Shown: positions 82-57,849 of the stretch, one piece after another
Layout of the letters: every line of letters starts with the position of its first letter
How positions within the stretch are numbered: position 1 is the stretch's first letter
DNA from: Escherichia coli
GTDB taxonomy: Bacteria > Pseudomonadota > Gammaproteobacteria > Enterobacterales > Enterobacteriaceae
Reading direction: 5' to 3' (one strand)
Length of the DNA stretch: 64,000 bases
Assembly: GCF_044324785.1 (NCBI RefSeq)
Contig: NZ_CP172127.1
Made by a program: the position numbers and the translations under genes
Notes under the pieces: model-generated
What the model saw: only the letters and a program-made list of their open reading frames with translations
What the model was told of the DNA's origin: nothing
The model's database searches: none

Positions 82-957
82 TCAATGCTCTCCTCTGAAC
101 ACCTCTTTTCTGTGCCATTCAACAAACTGCTCGCCCGGATAATTTTCTTTAACCGGTGGCAACGCAATCGCCTTTCCCGCAAAATCCCAGAACAGTCGCT
201 GTACCACTCCACCACCATTTACCGCGCCGGAAACCACCACACGCATATTTTCATCCAAGCCAATCGAACCGCGATCAAACGCTTTATGATGGATTGCGCA
301 CAATGCCAGGCCATTAGGTACTTCACAAGGGCCATGGTGCTGCTTCCATCTGATATGAGCGGCTTCCAGAGCAATCGGCGCATTGTCGTGGCGCATGTTA
401 AAGCCGCAGATAGCGCACTGATAATTGTAAGCACGTAGCACCATCTGGCGAAACTTCGGATCGCGTTGACGGAGAGAGGTGCGAATATCAAAACCCATCT
501 CGTCAGCGATCTCTTCCTGAATACTGGCCGGGAAATGCGCCTCCAGGAGCTGCTGCGCCAGCGTATCAATTAACCTGTGATTTTTTGCCACCAACGCAAA
601 ATTATCGGCATCAAATCCACCAGCAACATTATATTCAATGAGTTCTCGTCGGGGCGGCTGGCGGCTACCACTGGTTGAGCACAGTTCCGCGTTATGTAGT
701 TCCCAGAAGCCATCGCCCTTCAGACGCCAGAACGGCATGTCCGGGCGCTGGTCACGGCGCTGCGGTCCATAACGTTCCAGGAGATCCAACAGGGGCTCGT
801 AGATTTCAGAACCATAGTTAAACAGGCGACCATGACCCTGCCGATAGTGTGAGAGAACGTACAGCAGCAATAATGGCTTATGTGGCGCACGTTGTTCGCC
901 TTTGCGCCAGATGGTGATATTTGATATCGCTTGCTTTAGGGTTTTGTCAGAGGTCAT
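82..957 (-). CDS. HNH-nuclease-domain protein (C-terminal CxxC...H...N...CxxHH motif), island cargo gene; N-terminal ~190 aa of unknown function
   Basis: ORF track 82..1002; start moved to internal ATG at 957 (291 aa). C-terminus carries YQCAICGF...AAHIRWKQHHGP...NGLALCAIHHKAFD, typical of HNH/His-Me finger nucleases. No clear Shine-Dalgarno, so start is uncertain. Confidence 0.6.
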   Translation of the reverse strand: MTSDKTLKQAISNITIWRKGEQRAPHKPLLLLYVLSHYRQGHGRLFNYGSEIYEPLLDLLERYGPQRRDQRPDMPFWRLKGDGFWELHNAELCSTSGSRQPPRRELIEYNVAGGFDADNFALVAKNHRLIDTLAQQLLEAHFPASIQEEIADEMGFDIRTSLRQRDPKFRQMVLRAYNYQCAICGFNMRHDNAPIALEAAHIRWKQHHGPCEVPNGLALCAIHHKAFDRGSIGLDENMRVVVSGAVNGGGVVQRLFWDFAGKAIALPPVKENYPGEQFVEWHRKEVFRGEH

Positions 958-1101
958 TGCGTTGGAGAATCCATGAGCACATATTTGCGATGATGCTCGC
1001 AACTATATGTACATTCAAGGCATTATTGCAGACATCCTTTTTCTCTGGCGGTTCTGTACCTGGCAGATAGAATTCTGATAACAACGGTAAAAAATACAGC
1101 G

Positions 1102-1132
1102 ACCAACCAGTCCTAAGCGGGCTGGTTGGTCT
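1102..1132. terminator. Perfect 10-bp stem hairpin (GACCAACCAG/CTGGTTGGTC) between integrase and HNH gene, T-rich on both flanks
   Basis: Seen directly; followed by TTTTAAATTT on + strand and by TATTTTTTAC on - strand. Confidence 0.45.
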
Positions 1133-1172
1133 TTTAAATTTAAACATCAGCCGAGGAATAACGGCATTCAAC

Positions 1173-2441
1173 TCACTCGCCATTACCCCGATTGATCTTC
1201 GCATAGTCAAACGGCGTAATCGCTCTCTCCCGATTCGCATCCAGAAAATCGGCCCACCACTGCAACATCAGCTTGCGCTCATCCAGATGTTCCGCTTTAT
1301 GGATATACGCCGCTCGCACCGAATTGCGCTCCATATGACTCATCTGTCGTTCCACCGCATCCTTCGACCATAACCCGGACTCAATTAACGAGCTACAGGC
1401 CATTGTGCGGAAGCCGTGGCCGCAAACTTCAACCTTAGTGTCATAACCCATCACCCGTAGCGCACTGTTCACCGTGTTTTCACTCATGGGCTTACGCGGA
1501 TCGTGATCGCCAATAAAAATCAGCTCATGCTCACCACAGAACTGCTTTATCTGCTTCAGGATCGCCAGCGCCTGCTTTGAAAGCGGCACCAGATGCGGTG
1601 TGCGCATCTTTGTTCCTCGCTGAGAATGTTTCACGCCGGGAATCGGTTCTCGCTCAGGAGGGATGGTCCACATTGATGTTTCAAAATCGATCTCTGACCA
1701 ACGAGCAAAACGCAGCTCACTGGACCGAATAAAGATAAGCAGAGTGAGTTCTGTCGCCCAGCGGGTTAGCGGCCTGCCGGTATAGCCGTCTATTTTCTCA
1801 AGCAACTCAGGGATGCGCTTTAACTCCAGCGCCGGACGATGCTGTCGATTACTGGAAGCAACCGCCCCCGCCATCTCTTGCGCCGGATTGTAATCAATTA
1901 ACCCGCTTTGCACTGCATAACGCATGATGGCCGTGGTGCGCTGTTGAAGGCGGGAAGCCACTTCAAGGCGTCCGGATTTCTCCACGGCTTTAATAGGAAT
2001 TAACAGATCGCGGGTGCCTAGTTCAGCAATATTGCGAGTACCAATTGCCGGGAAGATATTGTCCTCCAGGCTCTTTTTTACACGATTAGCATGATCTTCC
2101 GACCATTTTTGGTTGGTTACGAACCACTCTCTGGCAACCTTCTCGAAAGTAATAATCTCTTTCGCCTGCTCTTCTTTCACAGCACGCTTATGCTCACGAG
2201 GATCGATACCAGCAGCTACCAGCTTTCTGGCCTCTTCCCTTTTCTTCCGCGCATCCGCCAGTGAAACATCCGGGTAAACGCCGAACGCCATCAAATGTTG
2301 TTTACCGCCAAAACGGAAACGAAATCGCCAATACTTTGAACCGCCAGGTTTTACAAGTAAGGACATGCCGTCGCCGTCAACAAGTGAATACTCTTTCTCC
2401 TCTGGTTTCGCAGAACGAACTTTAGTATCCGTTAGGGCCAT
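1173..2441 (-). CDS. P4-family (CP4-like) tyrosine integrase
   Basis: ORF track 1173..2519 begins with GTG; start placed at ATG for MALTDTKV with GGAAGGAAG RBS (422 aa). N-terminal arm-binding motif GSKYWRFRFRFGGK, C-terminal catalytic region, and position directly beside the tRNA-Leu 3' end. Confidence 0.9.
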   Translation of the reverse strand: MALTDTKVRSAKPEEKEYSLVDGDGMSLLVKPGGSKYWRFRFRFGGKQHLMAFGVYPDVSLADARKKREEARKLVAAGIDPREHKRAVKEEQAKEIITFEKVAREWFVTNQKWSEDHANRVKKSLEDNIFPAIGTRNIAELGTRDLLIPIKAVEKSGRLEVASRLQQRTTAIMRYAVQSGLIDYNPAQEMAGAVASSNRQHRPALELKRIPELLEKIDGYTGRPLTRWATELTLLIFIRSSELRFARWSEIDFETSMWTIPPEREPIPGVKHSQRGTKMRTPHLVPLSKQALAILKQIKQFCGEHELIFIGDHDPRKPMSENTVNSALRVMGYDTKVEVCGHGFRTMACSSLIESGLWSKDAVERQMSHMERNSVRAAYIHKAEHLDERKLMLQWWADFLDANRERAITPFDYAKINRGNGE

Positions 2442-2467
2442 AGTGGTCTTCCTTCCATTGGTATCTC

Positions 2468-2519
2468 GTGAGTATACAAGCAATATCGAATCGGCAAATA
2501 TACTCATTAGTATACTCAC
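2468..2519. repeat. Inverted 10-bp repeat GTGAGTATAC / GTATACTCAC plus extra TATACTCA copy in the integrase 5' region
   Basis: Seen directly at 2468-2477 and 2510-2519, with a further TATACTCA at ~2499-2506; lies between the integrase start and leuX. Confidence 0.5.
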
Positions 2520-2603
2520 AAGCCTGTTGATGTGGGTTGAGTCAGGTTGACTTCAGTTGAGGAGAAAAGCTGGAAAAGCCTTGTGTAGCGCGGATTTCAG
2601 GCA

Positions 2604-2628
2604 TAAAAAAAGACCTCAGTTGAGGTCT
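2604..2628 (-). terminator. Rho-independent terminator downstream of leuX
   Basis: Hairpin AGACCTCA-GT-TGAGGTCT followed on the minus strand by a T7 tract. Confidence 0.75.
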
Positions 2629-2641
2629 ATTTACATACTTT

Positions 2642-2726
2642 TGGTGCCGAAGGCCGGACTCGAACCGGCACGTATTTCTACGGTTGATTTTGAATCAACT
2701 GCGTCTACCGATTTCGCCACTTCGGC
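2642..2726 (-). tRNA. leuX: tRNA-Leu (anticodon CAA)
   Basis: 85-nt sequence GCCGAAGTGGCGAAATCGGTAGACGCAGTTGATTCAAAATCAACCGTAGAAATACGTGCCGGTTCGAGTCCGGCCTTCGGCACCA on the minus strand, with encoded CCA. Confidence 0.95.
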
Positions 2727-2921
2727 ACTGAAGAGGTATGCGGAAAACGTTGTGGATTATACCTGTCGCACGCCACCATGCAAGCGCCAGCTTGCTCGCA
2801 CCTCGCTAAGTGCTGAAATTTTCAGCATTGCATACAGCGATGTGTAACCTTTGTCACACTCCAGGCACCCCGCCCTGCCATGCTCTACACTTCCCAGACA
2901 ACACCAGAGAAGGACCAAAAA

Positions 2922-3941
2922 ATGTCGATGATAAAAAGCTACGCCGCAAAAGAGGCTGGCGGCGAACTGGAACTTTATGAGTACGATCCCGGTGAACTGA
3001 AGCCACAAGATGTTGAAGTGCAGGTGGATTACTGCGGGATCTGCCATTCCGATCTGTCGATGATCGACAACGAATGGGGATTTTCACAGTATCCGCTGGT
3101 TGCCGGGCATGAGGTGATTGGTCGCGTGGTGGCGCTCGGGAGTGCCGCACAGGATAAAGGTTTGCAGGTCGGTCAGCGTGTCGGGATTGGCTGGACGGCA
3201 CGCAGCTGCGGGCATTGCGATGCCTGTATTAGCGGTAATCAGATCAACTGCGAGCAAGGCGCGGTGCCGACGATTATGAATCGCGGCGGCTTTGCTGAGA
3301 AGCTGCGTGCGGACTGGCAATGGGTGATCCCACTGCCAGAAAATATCGACATTGAATCTGCTGGGCCGCTGTTGTGCGGCGGTATCACGGTCTTTAAACC
3401 ACTGTTGATGCACCATATCACTGCCACCAGCCGCGTCGGCGTAATTGGTATTGGCGGGCTGGGGCATATCGCTATAAAACTTCTGCACGCAATGGGATGC
3501 GAGGTGACAGCCTTTAGTTCGAATCCGGCGAAAGAGCAGGAAGTGCTGGCGATGGGTGCCGATAAAGTGGTGAATAGCCGCGATCCGCAGGCACTCAAAG
3601 CACTGGCGGGGCAGTTTGATCTCATTATCAACACCGTCAACGTCAGCCTCGACTGGCAGCCTTATTTTGAGGCGCTGACGTATGGCGGTAATTTCCATAC
3701 GGTCGGTGCGGTTCTCACGCCGCTGTCTGTTCCGGCCTTTACGTTAATTGCGGGCGATCGCAGTGTCTCAGGTTCGGCAACCGGTACGCCTTATGAGCTG
3801 CGTAAGCTGATGCGCTTTGCCACCCGCAGCAAGGTTGCGCCGACCACCGAACTGTTCCCGATGTCGAAAATAAACGACGCCATCCAGCATGTGCGCAACG
3901 GTAAGGCGCGTTACCGCGTGGTTCTGAAAGCCGATTTTTGA
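2922..3941 (+). CDS. ahr: NADPH-dependent aldehyde reductase (Zn-dependent ADH family)
   Basis: ORF 2880..3941; start at [14 protein letters not shown] with RBS; GHEVIG and CGICHSD zinc-ADH motifs. Confidence 0.92.
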
Positions 3942-3944
3942 AAA

Positions 3945-4508
3945 TCATTCGCAGCGCTGATCTGAGGCGCTGCCCCCTTTCGCACATATTCTGTCTTGTC
4001 GTATCGCCAGCACGGCCTGCCGACATTGTTCGGTGACATTGGCAATATCATGGTTGATATCAATGCGCACAATATCCTGTTCATCTGCTTGTGGACGCTC
4101 CAGCGCCTCAAACTGACTTTTTAGTAACGCTACCGGCATAAAATGCCCAGCCCGCCGCTGCATTCGCGCGAGAATAGTTTCATAGTCGCCATCTAACCAG
4201 AGGAAATGAACATGGGGGCTACCCTTGCGTAAAATATCACGATACTGTTTTTTTAATGATGAACAGACAATAAATCCTGTTTCATTCTTTTTATAAAGAC
4301 TGTATGAAGCATCATTTAAGCGTTCCAGCCAGGGAAGTCGATCTTCATCAGATAATGGAATACCCTGCGACATTTTATCTATATTTTTGGCTGGATGAAG
4401 ATCGTCACCATCAATAAATTTAGCAGATAATAACGCGGCAACCTTGCTACCAATTAATGTTTTACCACTCCCTGAAACGCCCATCAAAATAAAGCTTTCA
4501 CCCGCCAT
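3945..4508 (-). CDS. idnK: Gluconate kinase (thermosensitive, GntV)
   Basis: 187 aa, Walker A GVSGSGKT; sits divergent to idnD. Confidence 0.92.
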   Translation of the reverse strand: MAGESFILMGVSGSGKTLIGSKVAALLSAKFIDGDDLHPAKNIDKMSQGIPLSDEDRLPWLERLNDASYSLYKKNETGFIVCSSLKKQYRDILRKGSPHVHFLWLDGDYETILARMQRRAGHFMPVALLKSQFEALERPQADEQDIVRIDINHDIANVTEQCRQAVLAIRQDRICAKGGSASDQRCE

Positions 4509-4609
4509 TTAAAATCTCCTGAATCATCTTACCTGCTGCGATACTACGCCTAGTGGCATAATAATTTCACGTTTTTTTATTTCTGCTGATAAGAATTACA
4601 AGGCACATC

Positions 4610-13137: not shown

Positions 13138-14652
<1,515 letters not shown>

Positions 14653-39220: not shown

Positions 39221-39264
39221 TAAGTTCCCTGTTACCTGAGTGCAGGCAACAGGGAAATAAGGAA

Positions 39265-48015: not shown

Positions 48016-48039
48016 AGTTTCCCCCGTTGTAAAGCGTGC

Positions 48040-48140
48040 GCCAGATAAGACACAACAGCGTCGCATCAGGCATCTCGCACAACCGCCGGATGCGGCGTGA
48101 ATGCCTTATCCGGCGGCCCACAAGTCGGCATCAGGCATTG
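48040..48140. repeat. REP/BIME pair between ytfR and ytfQ
   Basis: GATAAGACACAACAGCGTCGCATCAGGC and CGCCGGATGCGGCGTGAATGCCTTATCCGGCGG. Confidence 0.8.
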
Positions 48141-49413: not shown

Positions 49414-49944
49414 ATGAGCTTACTCAACGTCCCTGCGGGTAAAGATCTGCCGGAAGACATCTACGTTGTTATTGAGATCCCGGCTAACGCAGATCCGATC
49501 AAATACGAAATCGACAAAGAGAGCGGCGCACTGTTCGTTGACCGCTTCATGTCCACCGCGATGTTCTATCCGTGCAACTACGGTTACATCAACCACACCC
49601 TGTCTCTGGACGGTGACCCGGTTGACGTACTGGTCCCGACTCCGTACCCGCTGCAGCCGGGTTCTGTGATCCGTTGCCGTCCTGTTGGCGTTCTGAAAAT
49701 GACCGATGAAGCCGGTGAAGATGCGAAACTGGTTGCGGTTCCGCACAGCAAGCTGAGCAAAGAATACGATCACATTAAAGACGTTAACGATCTGCCTGAA
49801 CTGCTGAAAGCACAGATCGCTCACTTCTTCGAGCACTACAAAGACCTCGAAAAAGGCAAGTGGGTGAAAGTTGAAGGCTGGGAAAACGCAGAAGCCGCTA
49901 AAGCTGAAATCGTTGCCTCCTTCGAGCGCGCAAAGAATAAATAA
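49414..49944 (+). CDS. ppa: Inorganic pyrophosphatase
   Basis: 176 aa. Confidence 0.97.
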
Positions 49945-50022
49945 GTTCTTCTAGCGTAATAACCCTGAACGCCGGGCTTCGGTTAGTAGGGGTTTTTTAT
50001 GCCCGCGATAAATAAACACACC

Positions 50023-50373
50023 TTATTCCACCACCGCCTGCAAACGTAATAACGCCTCTTCCACCACCTCACCCGCAGCCAGACCAATACGCTTTGCCAG
50101 CCGGGCGCGTAGATCCATCATCCGCACCTGATTCACCAGCACCACGCCGTGCACATCGCCTTCTTCGCAATGTAAAGGAACGCTAAATCCGGCATAACGG
50201 GCAAAATTTCCGCCCTGCGTAATGGGGGCCACCAGCGTCATTCCCAGTTGATTAAAGGCTTGAACGGAGAGCACAAGCGCAGGTCGACCAGCACCTTGCT
50301 GTTCATGGCCGCTTGCTGGATCAAAGCCAACCAGCACAATGTCTCCCCGTTCAAATTCACTTTTCTTTACCAT
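50023..50373 (-). CDS. chpB: Type II toxin ChpB (MazF-family endoribonuclease)
   Basis: 116 aa; MVKKSEFERGDIVLVGFDPASGHE... Confidence 0.92.
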   Translation of the reverse strand: MVKKSEFERGDIVLVGFDPASGHEQQGAGRPALVLSVQAFNQLGMTLVAPITQGGNFARYAGFSVPLHCEEGDVHGVVLVNQVRMMDLRARLAKRIGLAAGEVVEEALLRLQAVVE

Positions 50374-50618
50374 ATTTCGTCACCCGCAGGGGTGGATTTA
50401 CCCCAGACATCCTGCTCGCTAAGTTCCGTGGCGTTCATGTCACACTGTGCCAGCAGTTCATCAAGCGAGTAGCGCCTGGAGATGGGTGTCAGAATCAGTT
50501 GATTGTTGCTCACTTGCGCCTCCACGCTCTGCCCCGGCCGTAAGTTAAGTTCTTTCATCACAACATTAGGAATGACCATACCTGAACTGTTCCCCCATCT
50601 TTTTATGGTAATACGCAT
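50367..50618 (-). CDS. chpS: Antitoxin ChpS (MazE/AbrB-fold)
   Basis: ORF 50367..50624; start MRITIKRWGNSSGMVIP (83 aa); 7-nt overlap with chpB. Confidence 0.9.
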   Translation of the reverse strand: MRITIKRWGNSSGMVIPNVVMKELNLRPGQSVEAQVSNNQLILTPISRRYSLDELLAQCDMNATELSEQDVWGKSTPAGDEIW

Positions 50619-50829
50619 CTGCACCTCCTTAAGTTATACAAAGTATAACTCACGGTGCTACAGGAAACGTTTTACCCCTGCGCATTTGTGAACGCCAGCA
50701 GAGTTTTTTATGCGTTAACAGATATGGAAAGCGGCTCGGAGAGAAAAGCAAAAGGTGAGGGAATTACAAAACAGAATGCGAGTCGTCTCGCAAAAAACAA
50801 CGCCACCCGAAGGTGGCGTATGCGTATGG

Positions 50830-51171
50830 TTACTTATCCCTGTCTAACCAGTCGCCGCTTTCAATTAGCTTTAATCCATCGACGGGTCGTTGATAAACGT
50901 ACATCCATGCACTCCCGTACGGCGTCTGAATCAACTGGCGCGCGTATTCACCGCCCCTGGTGCGCAAGGCATCAAGTTCGGCCAGCGTGGCGTTGTCAAT
51001 ACGATAAACTTCACCGTGTACTGTTCCGTTCCCCGGAACTGCGCCTGGATAGTGGCCCAGGCTATACAACTGGTAGTTATCGATACTGAAATCGCCCAGT
51101 AACTGGGCATTGGTCATCCAGTGACTGTTGCCTTGTTTGTGGCGTAAACTGCCGTAGACAAATATTCGCAT
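50830..51171 (-). CDS. ytfP: Gamma-glutamylcyclotransferase-family protein
   Basis: 113 aa. Confidence 0.88.
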   Translation of the reverse strand: MRIFVYGSLRHKQGNSHWMTNAQLLGDFSIDNYQLYSLGHYPGAVPGNGTVHGEVYRIDNATLAELDALRTRGGEYARQLIQTPYGSAWMYVYQRPVDGLKLIESGDWLDRDK

Positions 51172-57572: not shown

Positions 57573-57673
57573 ATGCCGGATGCGACGTAAACGCCTTGCC
57601 AGGCCTACAAAACCCTCCAAATTCAATATATTGCAGGGACTTCGTAGGCCTGATCGGCATAGCGCATCAGGCA
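57573..57673. repeat. REP/BIME pair after msrA
   Basis: TGCCGGATGCGACGTAAACGCCTTGCCAGGCCTACA and GTAGGCCTGATCGGCATAGCGCATCAGGCA. Confidence 0.8.
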
Positions 57674-57849
57674 GTTTTTCATTTATCAACAGTCTGAATT
57701 TTAACCCTCTGGCGGCTTTACAGTACCTTACGCTATACTAGCCACTGAAAATGCCGGTTCACTTTCTTCGAATCGGCTTTCAATGTGTATTTCACACAAA
57801 TTAATCAACTTCCCCTTCCGAGGATCTGGCCTGAAAGGTCGGATAAGAT

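What the first reader, a model, noticed from the sequence alone, without database searches (positions are those of the whole stretch)
50023..50618. chpBS type II toxin-antitoxin module in core context
The MazF-family toxin ChpB and MazE-like antitoxin ChpS overlap by 7 nt in the canonical antitoxin-first arrangement. It is a known system, noted because TA modules can contribute to abortive infection and are easily mistaken for novel defence pairs.
Basis: established knowledge. Interest (0 to 1): 0.15.

Follow-up and report, generated by a model that had tools for sequence, protein, structure and literature searches.

The report
Known chpSB toxin-antitoxin pair, intact
This is the well-known E. 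coli chpS-chpB toxin-antitoxin gene pair, intact and in its usual chromosomal place, so the finding is correct but ordinary.

Summary
On the minus strand, chpS (50367..50618, 83 aa) precedes chpB (50023..50373, 116 aa), and the two overlap by 7 nt (ATGGTAA). Both proteins match the NCBIfam ChpS and ChpB equivalog models over their full length, far above the cut-offs. They are 95% and 98% identical to the K-12 proteins. The DNA is 100% identical to strains such as SMS-3-5. The gene order ytfQ / ppa / chpB-chpS / ytfP-tamB is the K-12 locus. Neither gene has a frameshift or premature stop, and the conserved catalytic Arg30 and Thr52 of MazF-type RNases are present.

The most likely mechanism is the published one. 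ChpB is a weak, ribosome-independent endoribonuclease that cuts at ACY (Y = U, A or G). ChpS neutralises it. I infer that ChpS also represses the operon at a palindrome (AGTTATAC-TTT-GTATAACT) just upstream of its ribosome-binding site.

Two corrections apply. The flanks are core, but the module is not: only 3097 of 5426 complete E. coli genomes carry it. The others examined, such as BL21(DE3), hold a decayed chpB remnant, and in one examined strain (Z1323HEC0477) esiB sits beside it. Nothing found here links chpSB to phage defence: no PADLOC hit, housekeeping neighbours, and no coliphage homologues.

Verdict: already known, low interest.

The parts
50367..50618 (-). chpS (chpBI) antitoxin gene, 83 aa. 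It has an N-terminal AbrB/MazE-type DNA-binding domain (residues 5-49) and an acidic C-terminal toxin-binding tail ending ...WGKSTPAGDEIW.
   Evidence: ORF; Pfam PF04014 E=1.5e-11; NCBIfam NF008463 'antitoxin ChpS' 192.8 bits against a cut-off of 101, 1-83/83; 79/83 identical to K-12 ChpS; W72, G73, P77, E81 and W83 invariant with MazE and the Burkholderia homologues.
50023..50373 (-). chpB (chpBK) toxin gene, 116 aa, a MazF/PemK-family endoribonuclease.
   Evidence: ORF; Pfam PF02452 E=3.7e-25; NCBIfam NF007320 'ChpB family toxin' 226.8 bits against a cut-off of 129, 1-116/116; 114/116 identical to K-12 ChpB, differing at H89R and D101G, both variable columns; closest solved structure is Kid, 1m1f, E=6.3e-21; R30 and T52 align with MazF R29 and T52.
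50367..50373 (-). 7-nt overlap ATGGTAA between the chpS stop and the chpB start. Translational coupling is inferred.
   Evidence: Sequence read directly. The same 7-nt overlap (ATGGTGA) and the same gene lengths occur in Burkholderia plasmid ChpB-family pairs that are only 61% identical.
50623..50630 (-). Shine-Dalgarno sequence AAGGAGGT of chpS, 4 nt upstream of the ATG at 50618.
   Evidence: Sequence read directly.
50619..50663 (-). Inferred operator and promoter core. It is an imperfect 21-nt inverted repeat with a perfect 8-bp core, AGTTATAC (50643-50650) - TTT - GTATAACT (50632-50639). The core overlaps a -10-like TATACT (50642-50647).
   Evidence: the repeat finder I1 and the sequence. 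The region is identical in K-12 and deleted in the BL21-type remnant allele. In the B. multivorans plasmid homologue (L010) a TACAAT -10, flanked by a 7-bp inverted repeat, lies 22 nt from the ATG, against 23 nt here. The B. glumae homologue (L009) has the TACAAT but no inverted repeat was detected. Function is inferred, not shown. The simple sigma-70 scan found no full promoter on this strand.

Best explanation
This is an intact copy of the chromosomal E. coli chpSB (chpBI/chpBK) type II toxin-antitoxin operon at its normal locus between ppa and ytfP. Shown here by sequence: two overlapping minus-strand genes in antitoxin-first order; full-length equivalog matches; near-identity to K-12; catalytic Arg30 and Thr52 present. 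Taken from the literature on the K-12 orthologue: ChpB is a ribosome-independent, sequence-specific endoribonuclease. It cuts single-stranded RNA before or after the A of ACY (Y = U, A or G) and leaves 2',3'-cyclic phosphate and 5'-OH ends. It is a weak toxin, reducing protein synthesis to about 60% of normal and causing growth inhibition rather than killing. Co-expressed ChpS abolishes that growth inhibition. Inferred: the C-terminal tail of ChpS (conserved W72/G73/E81/W83) binds and blocks the ChpB dimer in the way MazE blocks MazF. The AbrB-type N-terminal domain of ChpS binds the palindrome AGTTATAC-TTT-GTATAACT, which overlaps a -10-like TATACT just upstream of the Shine-Dalgarno sequence, and so autorepresses the operon. 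The 7-nt overlap couples chpB translation to chpS translation. Degradation of the labile antitoxin under stress frees ChpB; Lon is the protease I recall from Christensen et al. 2003, which I could not read here.
For: ORFs and overlap. Pfam PemK_toxin and MazE_antitoxin. NCBIfam ChpB and ChpS equivalogs above cut-off over the full length. 98% and 95% protein identity to K-12. Same gene order as K-12 (tamB-ytfP-chpS-chpB-ppa-ytfQ). The spacers are 211 nt and 78 nt here, against 211 and 79 tabulated for K-12 in PMC5120126. 100% DNA identity to RefSeq genomes annotated chpB/chpS. R30 and T52 are invariant with MazF R29 and T52. The equivalent Arg and Thr are catalytically essential in MazF-bs and MazF-sth (PMC10893535). 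Cleavage specificity and weak toxicity: PMC5408214. Growth inhibition neutralised by ChpBI: PMC8406201. Ribosome independence: PMC2814082. Palindrome at the promoter. Gene lengths and overlap are conserved in both Burkholderia homologues, and a promoter-proximal inverted repeat is present in the B. multivorans one. Native-like base composition (module 52.7% GC against 50.5% for the window).
Against: Nothing contradicts the identification. The weak points are all in the mechanism. No canonical -35 element was found for the inferred promoter. No operator-binding data, transcription start site or ChpS half-life data for chpSB were retrieved. This allele differs from the tested K-12 proteins at 2 toxin and 4 antitoxin residues, and its activity is untested. 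About 43% of complete E. coli genomes do without the module, so any physiological role is dispensable.
Confidence: 0.96

Rival explanations
1. The genes are intact, but the module is an evolutionary leftover with no role in the cell. On this view it is a weakly toxic, selfish or decaying addiction cassette that persists by drift or self-addiction and is on its way to loss.
For: Only 3097 of 5426 complete genomes keep it. The alternative alleles examined show it can decay to a ~160-bp remnant without harm, for example in BL21(DE3). Literature describes ChpB as a poor toxin (PMC5408214). Deleting chpB together with three other TA loci had no effect in the Lon-overproduction assays (PMC7167474).
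Against: Both ORFs, the catalytic residues, the Shine-Dalgarno sequence, the overlap and the palindrome are all preserved. The differences from K-12 fall in variable columns. The architecture is conserved down to 61% identity in Burkholderia. These points suggest purifying selection on the pair where it is retained. This rival concerns the biological role, not what the element is.
Confidence: 0.3
2. chpSB acts as an abortive-infection or anti-phage defence pair, with phage infection triggering loss of ChpS and RNA cleavage by ChpB.
For: There is only generic precedent. Other TA systems, including mazEF against RNA phages (PMC12151602), can protect populations. The patchy distribution of the module resembles that of defence genes.
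Against: Neither protein hits a PADLOC model. The neighbours are housekeeping genes, not a defence island. ChpB sites ACG and ACU are not depleted in E. coli RNA phage genomes (PMC12151602). No coliphage in the phage collection carries a ChpS- or ChpB-like gene that might indicate an arms race.
Confidence: 0.05
3. The two ORFs are chance open frames or a mis-called pseudogene pair.
For: None.
Against: Both give full-length equivalog matches with E-values of 3.9e-68 and 7e-58. There are no stops or frameshifts. They are near-identical to the K-12 genes that have been characterised experimentally.
Confidence: 0.01

Closest known systems
E. coli K-12 chpSB (chpBI/chpBK; b4224/b4225), Masuda et al. 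1993; Zhang et al. 2005
   Same: Same locus (ppa | chpB-chpS | ytfP-tamB), same gene lengths (83 and 116 aa), same 7-nt overlap, and an identical promoter-proximal palindrome. Proteins are 95% and 98% identical.
   Different: Allelic only: ChpB H89R and D101G; ChpS A12S, I19V, Q27R and A64T. The DNA is about 98.2% identical to K-12-type strains and 100% identical to SMS-3-5, PCN033 and others.
E. coli mazEF (chpA)
   Same: Same two protein families, antitoxin-first operon, conserved catalytic Arg and Thr, conserved C-terminal W/E/W motif in the antitoxin, and ACA within the recognised sites (PMC5408214).
   Different: Only 34-37% (toxin) and 35% (antitoxin) identity. The locus differs (downstream of relA). 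The NCBIfam MazF and MazE equivalog scores fall below their cut-offs (62.7 against 120; 34.8 against 113). ChpB has the looser ACY specificity and much weaker toxicity.
Plasmid R1/R100 kis-kid / pemIK
   Same: Kid is the closest solved structure (1m1f, E=6.3e-21) and is 46% identical to ChpB in the alignment. chpB was originally described as a chromosomal pem homologue.
   Different: It is plasmid-borne and functions in post-segregational killing. Plasmid PemK copies are about 44% identical. By my own residue count from the alignment, Kid's proposed catalytic R73 and D75 (recalled from Kamphuis et al. 2006) align with Leu and Asn in ChpB, in K-12 as well. Kid cleaves at UAH / UUACU.
ChpB-family pairs on Burkholderia plasmids (e.g. 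B. glumae BGR1 bglu_1p)
   Same: 252-nt and 351-nt genes, 7-nt ATGGTGA overlap, toxin 61% identical and annotated as ChpB family. A promoter-proximal inverted repeat is present in the B. multivorans copy (L010).
   Different: They lie on plasmids next to integrase genes. The antitoxin is only 36-39% identical, the L010 repeat differs in sequence from the E. coli palindrome, and no inverted repeat was detected upstream of the B. glumae copy (L009).

Membership tests
ChpB toxin (NCBIfam NF007320 equivalog; Pfam PF02452 PemK/MazF) | Full-length match to the curated equivalog model above its cut-off | tested here: met
   226.8 bits against a cut-off of 129, residues 1-116 on model 1-116. Pfam PF02452 scores 88.7 bits against 23.1. 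The MazF equivalogs score below their cut-offs, so this is ChpB and not MazF.
ChpB toxin (NCBIfam NF007320 equivalog; Pfam PF02452 PemK/MazF) | Conserved catalytic Arg and Thr of MazF-type RNases (MazF-ec R29/T52; MazF-bs R25/T48) | tested here: met
   ChpB R30 and T52 fall in invariant alignment columns with MazF, Kid and the Burkholderia homologues. These residues are essential in MazF-bs and MazF-sth according to PMC10893535.
ChpB toxin (NCBIfam NF007320 equivalog; Pfam PF02452 PemK/MazF) | Orthologous chromosomal position (between ppa and ytfP) | tested here: met
   The window gene order matches K-12 and SMS-3-5.
ChpB toxin (NCBIfam NF007320 equivalog; Pfam PF02452 PemK/MazF) | Ribosome-independent RNA cleavage at ACY that causes growth inhibition | not testable with these tools
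   Known for the K-12 protein (PMC5408214, PMC2814082, PMC8406201). This allele differs at 2 non-conserved residues.
ChpS antitoxin (NCBIfam NF008463 equivalog; Pfam PF04014 MazE/AbrB) | Full-length match to the equivalog model, with an N-terminal AbrB/MazE domain | tested here: met
   192.8 bits against a cut-off of 101, 1-83/83. PF04014 covers residues 5-49, E=1.5e-11.
ChpS antitoxin (NCBIfam NF008463 equivalog; Pfam PF04014 MazE/AbrB) | C-terminal toxin-binding tail with the conserved Trp/Glu/Trp motif | tested here: met
   W72, G73, P77, E81 and W83 are invariant with MazE and the Burkholderia antitoxins. Binding itself was not tested.
Type II TA operon | Antitoxin gene directly upstream of the toxin gene on the same strand, overlapping or abutting it | tested here: met
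   chpS 50618..50367 and chpB 50373..50023, both on the minus strand, overlap by 7 nt.
Type II TA operon | Autoregulation by antitoxin binding to a palindromic operator in the promoter | tested here: inconclusive
   A palindrome with a perfect 8-bp core lies next to the Shine-Dalgarno sequence and overlaps a -10-like hexamer. No canonical promoter was called, and no binding or transcription start data were found.
Anti-phage abortive-infection system | Match to a catalogued defence-system protein model | tested here: not met
   No PADLOC family matched either protein at E<=0.01.
Anti-phage abortive-infection system | Location in a defence island or mobile element | tested here: not met
   The neighbours are ppa, ytfP, tamAB and ytfQRT. 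GC content is native-like.
Anti-phage abortive-infection system | Protection of a culture against phage | not testable with these tools
   No report for chpSB was found in the papers searched.

The most novel reading that the evidence does not exclude
The ppa-ytfP spacer carries old alternative alleles that segregate across E. coli: intact chpSB, a decayed chpB remnant, and that remnant plus esiB. The most novel reading not excluded is that selection maintains this polymorphism. On that reading chpSB would give a condition-dependent benefit in natural isolates, such as phage or plasmid exclusion (anti-addiction against pemIK/kis-kid plasmids), set against a cost. The R89/G101 ChpB allele found here might then differ in activity from the weak K-12 enzyme.
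Probability: 0.08. Interest if true: 0.4.

Novelty: already known. Interest (0 to 1): 0.05.

Why it matters
It matters little for discovery. It is a correct call of a textbook type II TA module, and flagging it stops it being mistaken for a new defence pair. Two facts are mildly useful. The module is not core: it is present in about 57% of complete E. coli genomes, and the chpSB-less alleles examined hold a decayed remnant rather than a clean empty site. Its exact architecture (83 and 116 aa, 7-nt overlap) is also conserved in ChpB-family pairs on Burkholderia plasmids.

Tried and rejected
(1) The sigma-70 and terminator consensus scan of 49850-50900 found no full promoter on the minus strand upstream of chpS. 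Its only minus-strand calls were the two ytfP terminator hairpins (50800-50819 and 50777-50792). The promoter assignment therefore rests on a -10-like TATACT and on the analogy with Burkholderia homologues.

(2) Rfam found nothing in or around the module, either at gathering threshold over the whole window or at E<=1 over 49900-50900. The single hit, to the S15 leader at E=0.99, is chance.

(3) PADLOC gave no hit.

(4) Phage collection: only distant (<40% identity) MazF/MazE-like genes turned up, almost all in phages of Gram-positive hosts plus one Pantoea phage, and none in coliphages.

(5) Plasmid collection: the hits at >=99% identity all lie in E. coli records labelled as plasmids. The one inspected (pMTY18781-2) carries the chromosomal tamB-ytfP-chpSB-ppa-ytfQRT segment, and another (H61/H86) is a 4.9-Mb record. 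This gives no sign that chpSB is plasmid-mobile.

(6) ACD site counts in the chpSB mRNA were 26 observed against 24.5 +/- 4.3 in shuffles, so there is no enrichment or avoidance.

(7) Base composition gives no sign of recent horizontal acquisition.

(8) Masuda et al. 1993 (PMC206809) is not held in the paper library, so the original description could not be read.

(9) Several fetched loci (L002, L004-L006) never reached the Python sandbox. The comparison of the whole window with SMS-3-5 was therefore done by coordinates and ORF lists, not by alignment.

(10) Structure prediction was not run. Sequence-level homology to the solved Kid and MazF structures made it unnecessary.

Full report
**Observation**

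On the minus strand of 50023-50618 there are two ORFs. One runs 50373 to 50023 and encodes 116 aa (MVKKSEFERGD...LQAVVE). The other ends at 50367. The mechanical ORF list starts the second at a GTG (50624). That codon lies inside a strong Shine-Dalgarno sequence (AAGGAGGT, 50623-50630). The ATG at 50618 gives the 83-aa protein MRITIKRWGNSSG...AGDEIW.

The junction reads GAC GAA ATA TGG TAA in the chpS frame and ATG GTA AAG in the chpB frame. The two genes therefore overlap by the 7 nt ATGGTAA at 50367-50373.

**Identity**

- The toxin matches Pfam PemK_toxin (E=3.7e-25) and the antitoxin matches MazE_antitoxin (E=1.5e-11).
- NCBIfam's equivalog models settle the identity. "ChpB family toxin" scores 226.8 bits against a cut-off of 129 over 1-116/116. 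"Antitoxin ChpS" scores 192.8 bits against a cut-off of 101 over 1-83/83. The MazF and MazE equivalogs fall well below their own cut-offs.
- Against K-12 MG1655, ChpB is 114/116 identical (H89R, D101G). ChpS is 79/83 identical (A12S, I19V, Q27R, A64T).
- The 881 bp around the module are 100% identical to at least 20 complete genomes, including SMS-3-5 and PCN033. RefSeq annotates chpB and chpS there.
- The gene order ytfQ / ppa / chpB-chpS / ytfP-tamB is the K-12 locus.
- The flanking spacers are 211 nt (chpS to ytfP) and 78 nt (ppa to chpB). K-12 has 211 and 79 as tabulated in PMC5120126.
- GC content is 52.7% for the module against 50.5% for the window, so there is no compositional sign of recent acquisition.

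**Is the module functionally intact?**

In alignments with K-12 MazF, Kid and two Burkholderia ChpB-family toxins, ChpB R30 and T52 fall in invariant columns with MazF R29 and T52. The equivalent Arg and Thr are required for catalysis in MazF-bs and MazF-sth (PMC10893535). The two differences from K-12 ChpB lie in variable columns.

ChpS keeps the AbrB/MazE-type N-terminal domain at residues 5-49. It also keeps the C-terminal W72/G73/P77/E81/W83 motif shared with MazE.

PDB holds no ChpB or ChpS structure. The nearest are Kid (1m1f, E=6.3e-21) for the toxin and MazE (1mvf, 1ub4) for the antitoxin.

**Mechanism**

The following is published for the K-12 orthologue:
- ChpBK cuts RNA before or after the A of ACY (Y = U, A or G). 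It leaves 2',3'-cyclic phosphate and 5'-OH ends.
- It is a weak toxin, reducing protein synthesis to about 60% of normal (PMC5408214).
- It acts independently of the ribosome (PMC2814082).
- Induction inhibits growth, and co-expressed ChpBI prevents that (PMC8406201).

The following I infer from this sequence:
- The 7-nt overlap couples chpB translation to chpS translation.
- An inverted repeat sits immediately upstream of the Shine-Dalgarno sequence. It spans 50619-50663 and has a perfect core, AGTTATAC-TTT-GTATAACT at 50632-50650. The core overlaps a -10-like TATACT (50642-50647). It is the likely operator for ChpS or the ChpS-ChpB complex.
- The simple promoter scan found no canonical -35/-10 pair on this strand, so the promoter assignment is tentative.

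Some support comes from distant homologues. ChpB-family pairs on Burkholderia glumae and B. multivorans plasmids have a toxin 61% identical and an antitoxin 36-39% identical. They have exactly the same gene lengths (252 and 351 nt) and the same 7-nt overlap (ATGGTGA). Both carry a TACAAT -10; in the B. multivorans copy it lies 22 nt from the ATG, against 23 nt for TATACT here. In the B. multivorans copy it is bracketed by a 7-bp inverted repeat, whereas no inverted repeat was detected upstream of the B. glumae copy.

Release of ChpB by Lon-dependent degradation of ChpS is what I recall from Christensen et al. 2003. I could not read that paper here.

**Corrections to the interpretation**

"Core context" needs qualifying. 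A megablast of the region against 5426 complete E. coli genomes finds a match covering at least 80% of the query in 3097 of them (57%). Another 1785 match only partly, and 544 do not match at all.

In BL21(DE3) the ppa-ytfP spacer is 379 nt and unannotated. It is not a clean empty site. It keeps the chpB stop codon and 3' end, plus about 95 bp that are 74-76% identical to window 50238-50332 (chpB codons ~14-45). chpS and the palindrome are gone.

A third allele, seen in strain Z1323HEC0477, carries the same remnant plus esiB. The esiB gene is inserted beside a second copy of the ytfP terminator hairpin.

The loss allele therefore looks old and shared between lineages. Both states occur among well-known laboratory strains: K-12 has the module and BL21 has the remnant.

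The abortive-infection remark is generic. Four results fail to support it for chpSB:
- Neither protein hits a PADLOC model.
- The neighbours are housekeeping genes.
- No coliphage in the phage collection encodes a ChpS- or ChpB-like protein.
- ChpB sites ACG and ACU are not depleted in E. coli RNA phage genomes, unlike MazF's ACA (PMC12151602).

**Comparison with known systems**

This is the chpSB system itself, an allelic variant of the K-12 genes. It is not mazEF: identity is 34-37%, the MazF equivalog score is below its cut-off, and the locus differs.

It is not plasmid pemIK/kis-kid either. Plasmid PemK copies are about 44% identical and Kid is 46% identical in the alignment. By my own residue count from the alignment, Kid's R73 and D75 align with Leu and Asn in ChpB. 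Their catalytic role is recalled from Kamphuis et al. 2006, which I did not read here.

The E. coli "plasmid" records that carry chpSB appear to be chromosomal DNA labelled as plasmid. The one I inspected (pMTY18781-2) carries the segment tamB-ytfP-chpSB-ppa-ytfQRT, and another is a 4.9-Mb record.

**Verdict**

The element is already known and of low interest. The only mildly new points are the three-state polymorphism of the ppa-ytfP spacer and the exact conservation of the operon architecture in Burkholderia plasmid homologues.

Noticed in passing
window 49945-50829; compare L002 (BL21(DE3)) 1496-1874 and L003 (strain Z1323HEC0477) 2496-4530: The ppa-ytfP spacer has three states in E. coli. 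They are intact chpSB (3097 of 5426 complete genomes), a ~160-bp decayed chpB remnant lacking chpS and its palindrome (BL21(DE3)-type, unannotated in RefSeq), and the same remnant plus esiB inserted next to a duplicated ytfP terminator hairpin. The chpSB-less alleles examined are therefore old decay products, not virgin sites.
   Followed up: partly
window 82-2726: The left edge of the window lies in an island at tRNA-Leu (2645-2726, -; the leuX position by gene order with SMS-3-5). It holds a P4-type integrase ORF (1173-2519, -; match to NCBIfam integrase domain model NF007246, E=6.9e-84, though its 281.8 bits fall below that model's 434-bit cut-off). Next to it is a phosphorothioated-DNA-binding HNH restriction endonuclease (82-1002, -; NF045808, 444.7 bits against a cut-off of 180). 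This is a real defence gene, and the rest of the island lies outside the window.
   Followed up: partly
window 39221-39264 (between nrdG and cybC): SMS-3-5, whose chpSB region is 100% identical to the window, carries a RelB/DinJ-RelE-family TA pair between cybC and nrdG. The window has only a 44-bp spacer there. This is a second small TA presence/absence polymorphism in otherwise collinear core DNA.
   Followed up: partly
L009 1256-1851 (B. glumae BGR1 plasmid bglu_1p); L010 1256-1851 (B. multivorans plasmid): ChpB-family TA pairs on Burkholderia plasmids sit next to integrase genes. They share the 252-nt and 351-nt gene lengths and the 7-nt ATGGTGA overlap with E. coli chpSB at only 61% (toxin) and 36-39% (antitoxin) identity. 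A promoter-proximal inverted repeat around a TACAAT -10 was found in the B. multivorans copy but not in the B. glumae copy.
   Followed up: partly
L008 (NZ_AP023207.1, E. coli 'plasmid' pMTY18781-2, 93.8 kb, non-mobilizable): The inspected record (93.8 kb) carries the chromosomal segment tamB-ytfP-chpSB-ppa-ytfQRT. Six further E. coli records labelled as plasmids (0.37-4.9 Mb) carry near-identical chpB (H86, H88-H92). These are probably chromosomal fragments or mis-assigned replicons rather than mobile chpSB. Only L008's context was checked.
   Followed up: no
window 13699-13893 (-), 31589-31704 (-), 48039-48115 (-), 57609-57651 (+), 57731-57788 (+), 62360-62482 (-): Rfam matches at gathering threshold elsewhere in the window are Ysr276, the mgtA Mg2+ riboswitch, naRNA4 (REP-derived), ES036, STnc450 and ES239. 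All are known enterobacterial RNA elements, and none lies near chpSB.
   Followed up: no
window 50668-50829: The part of the chpS-ytfP spacer nearest ytfP is conserved at about 89% even in the remnant alleles. It holds two tandem terminator-like hairpins for ytfP (50800-50819 and 50777-50792, minus strand). K-12 once listed a phantom gene (yzfA) here. No Rfam family matches.
   Followed up: partly
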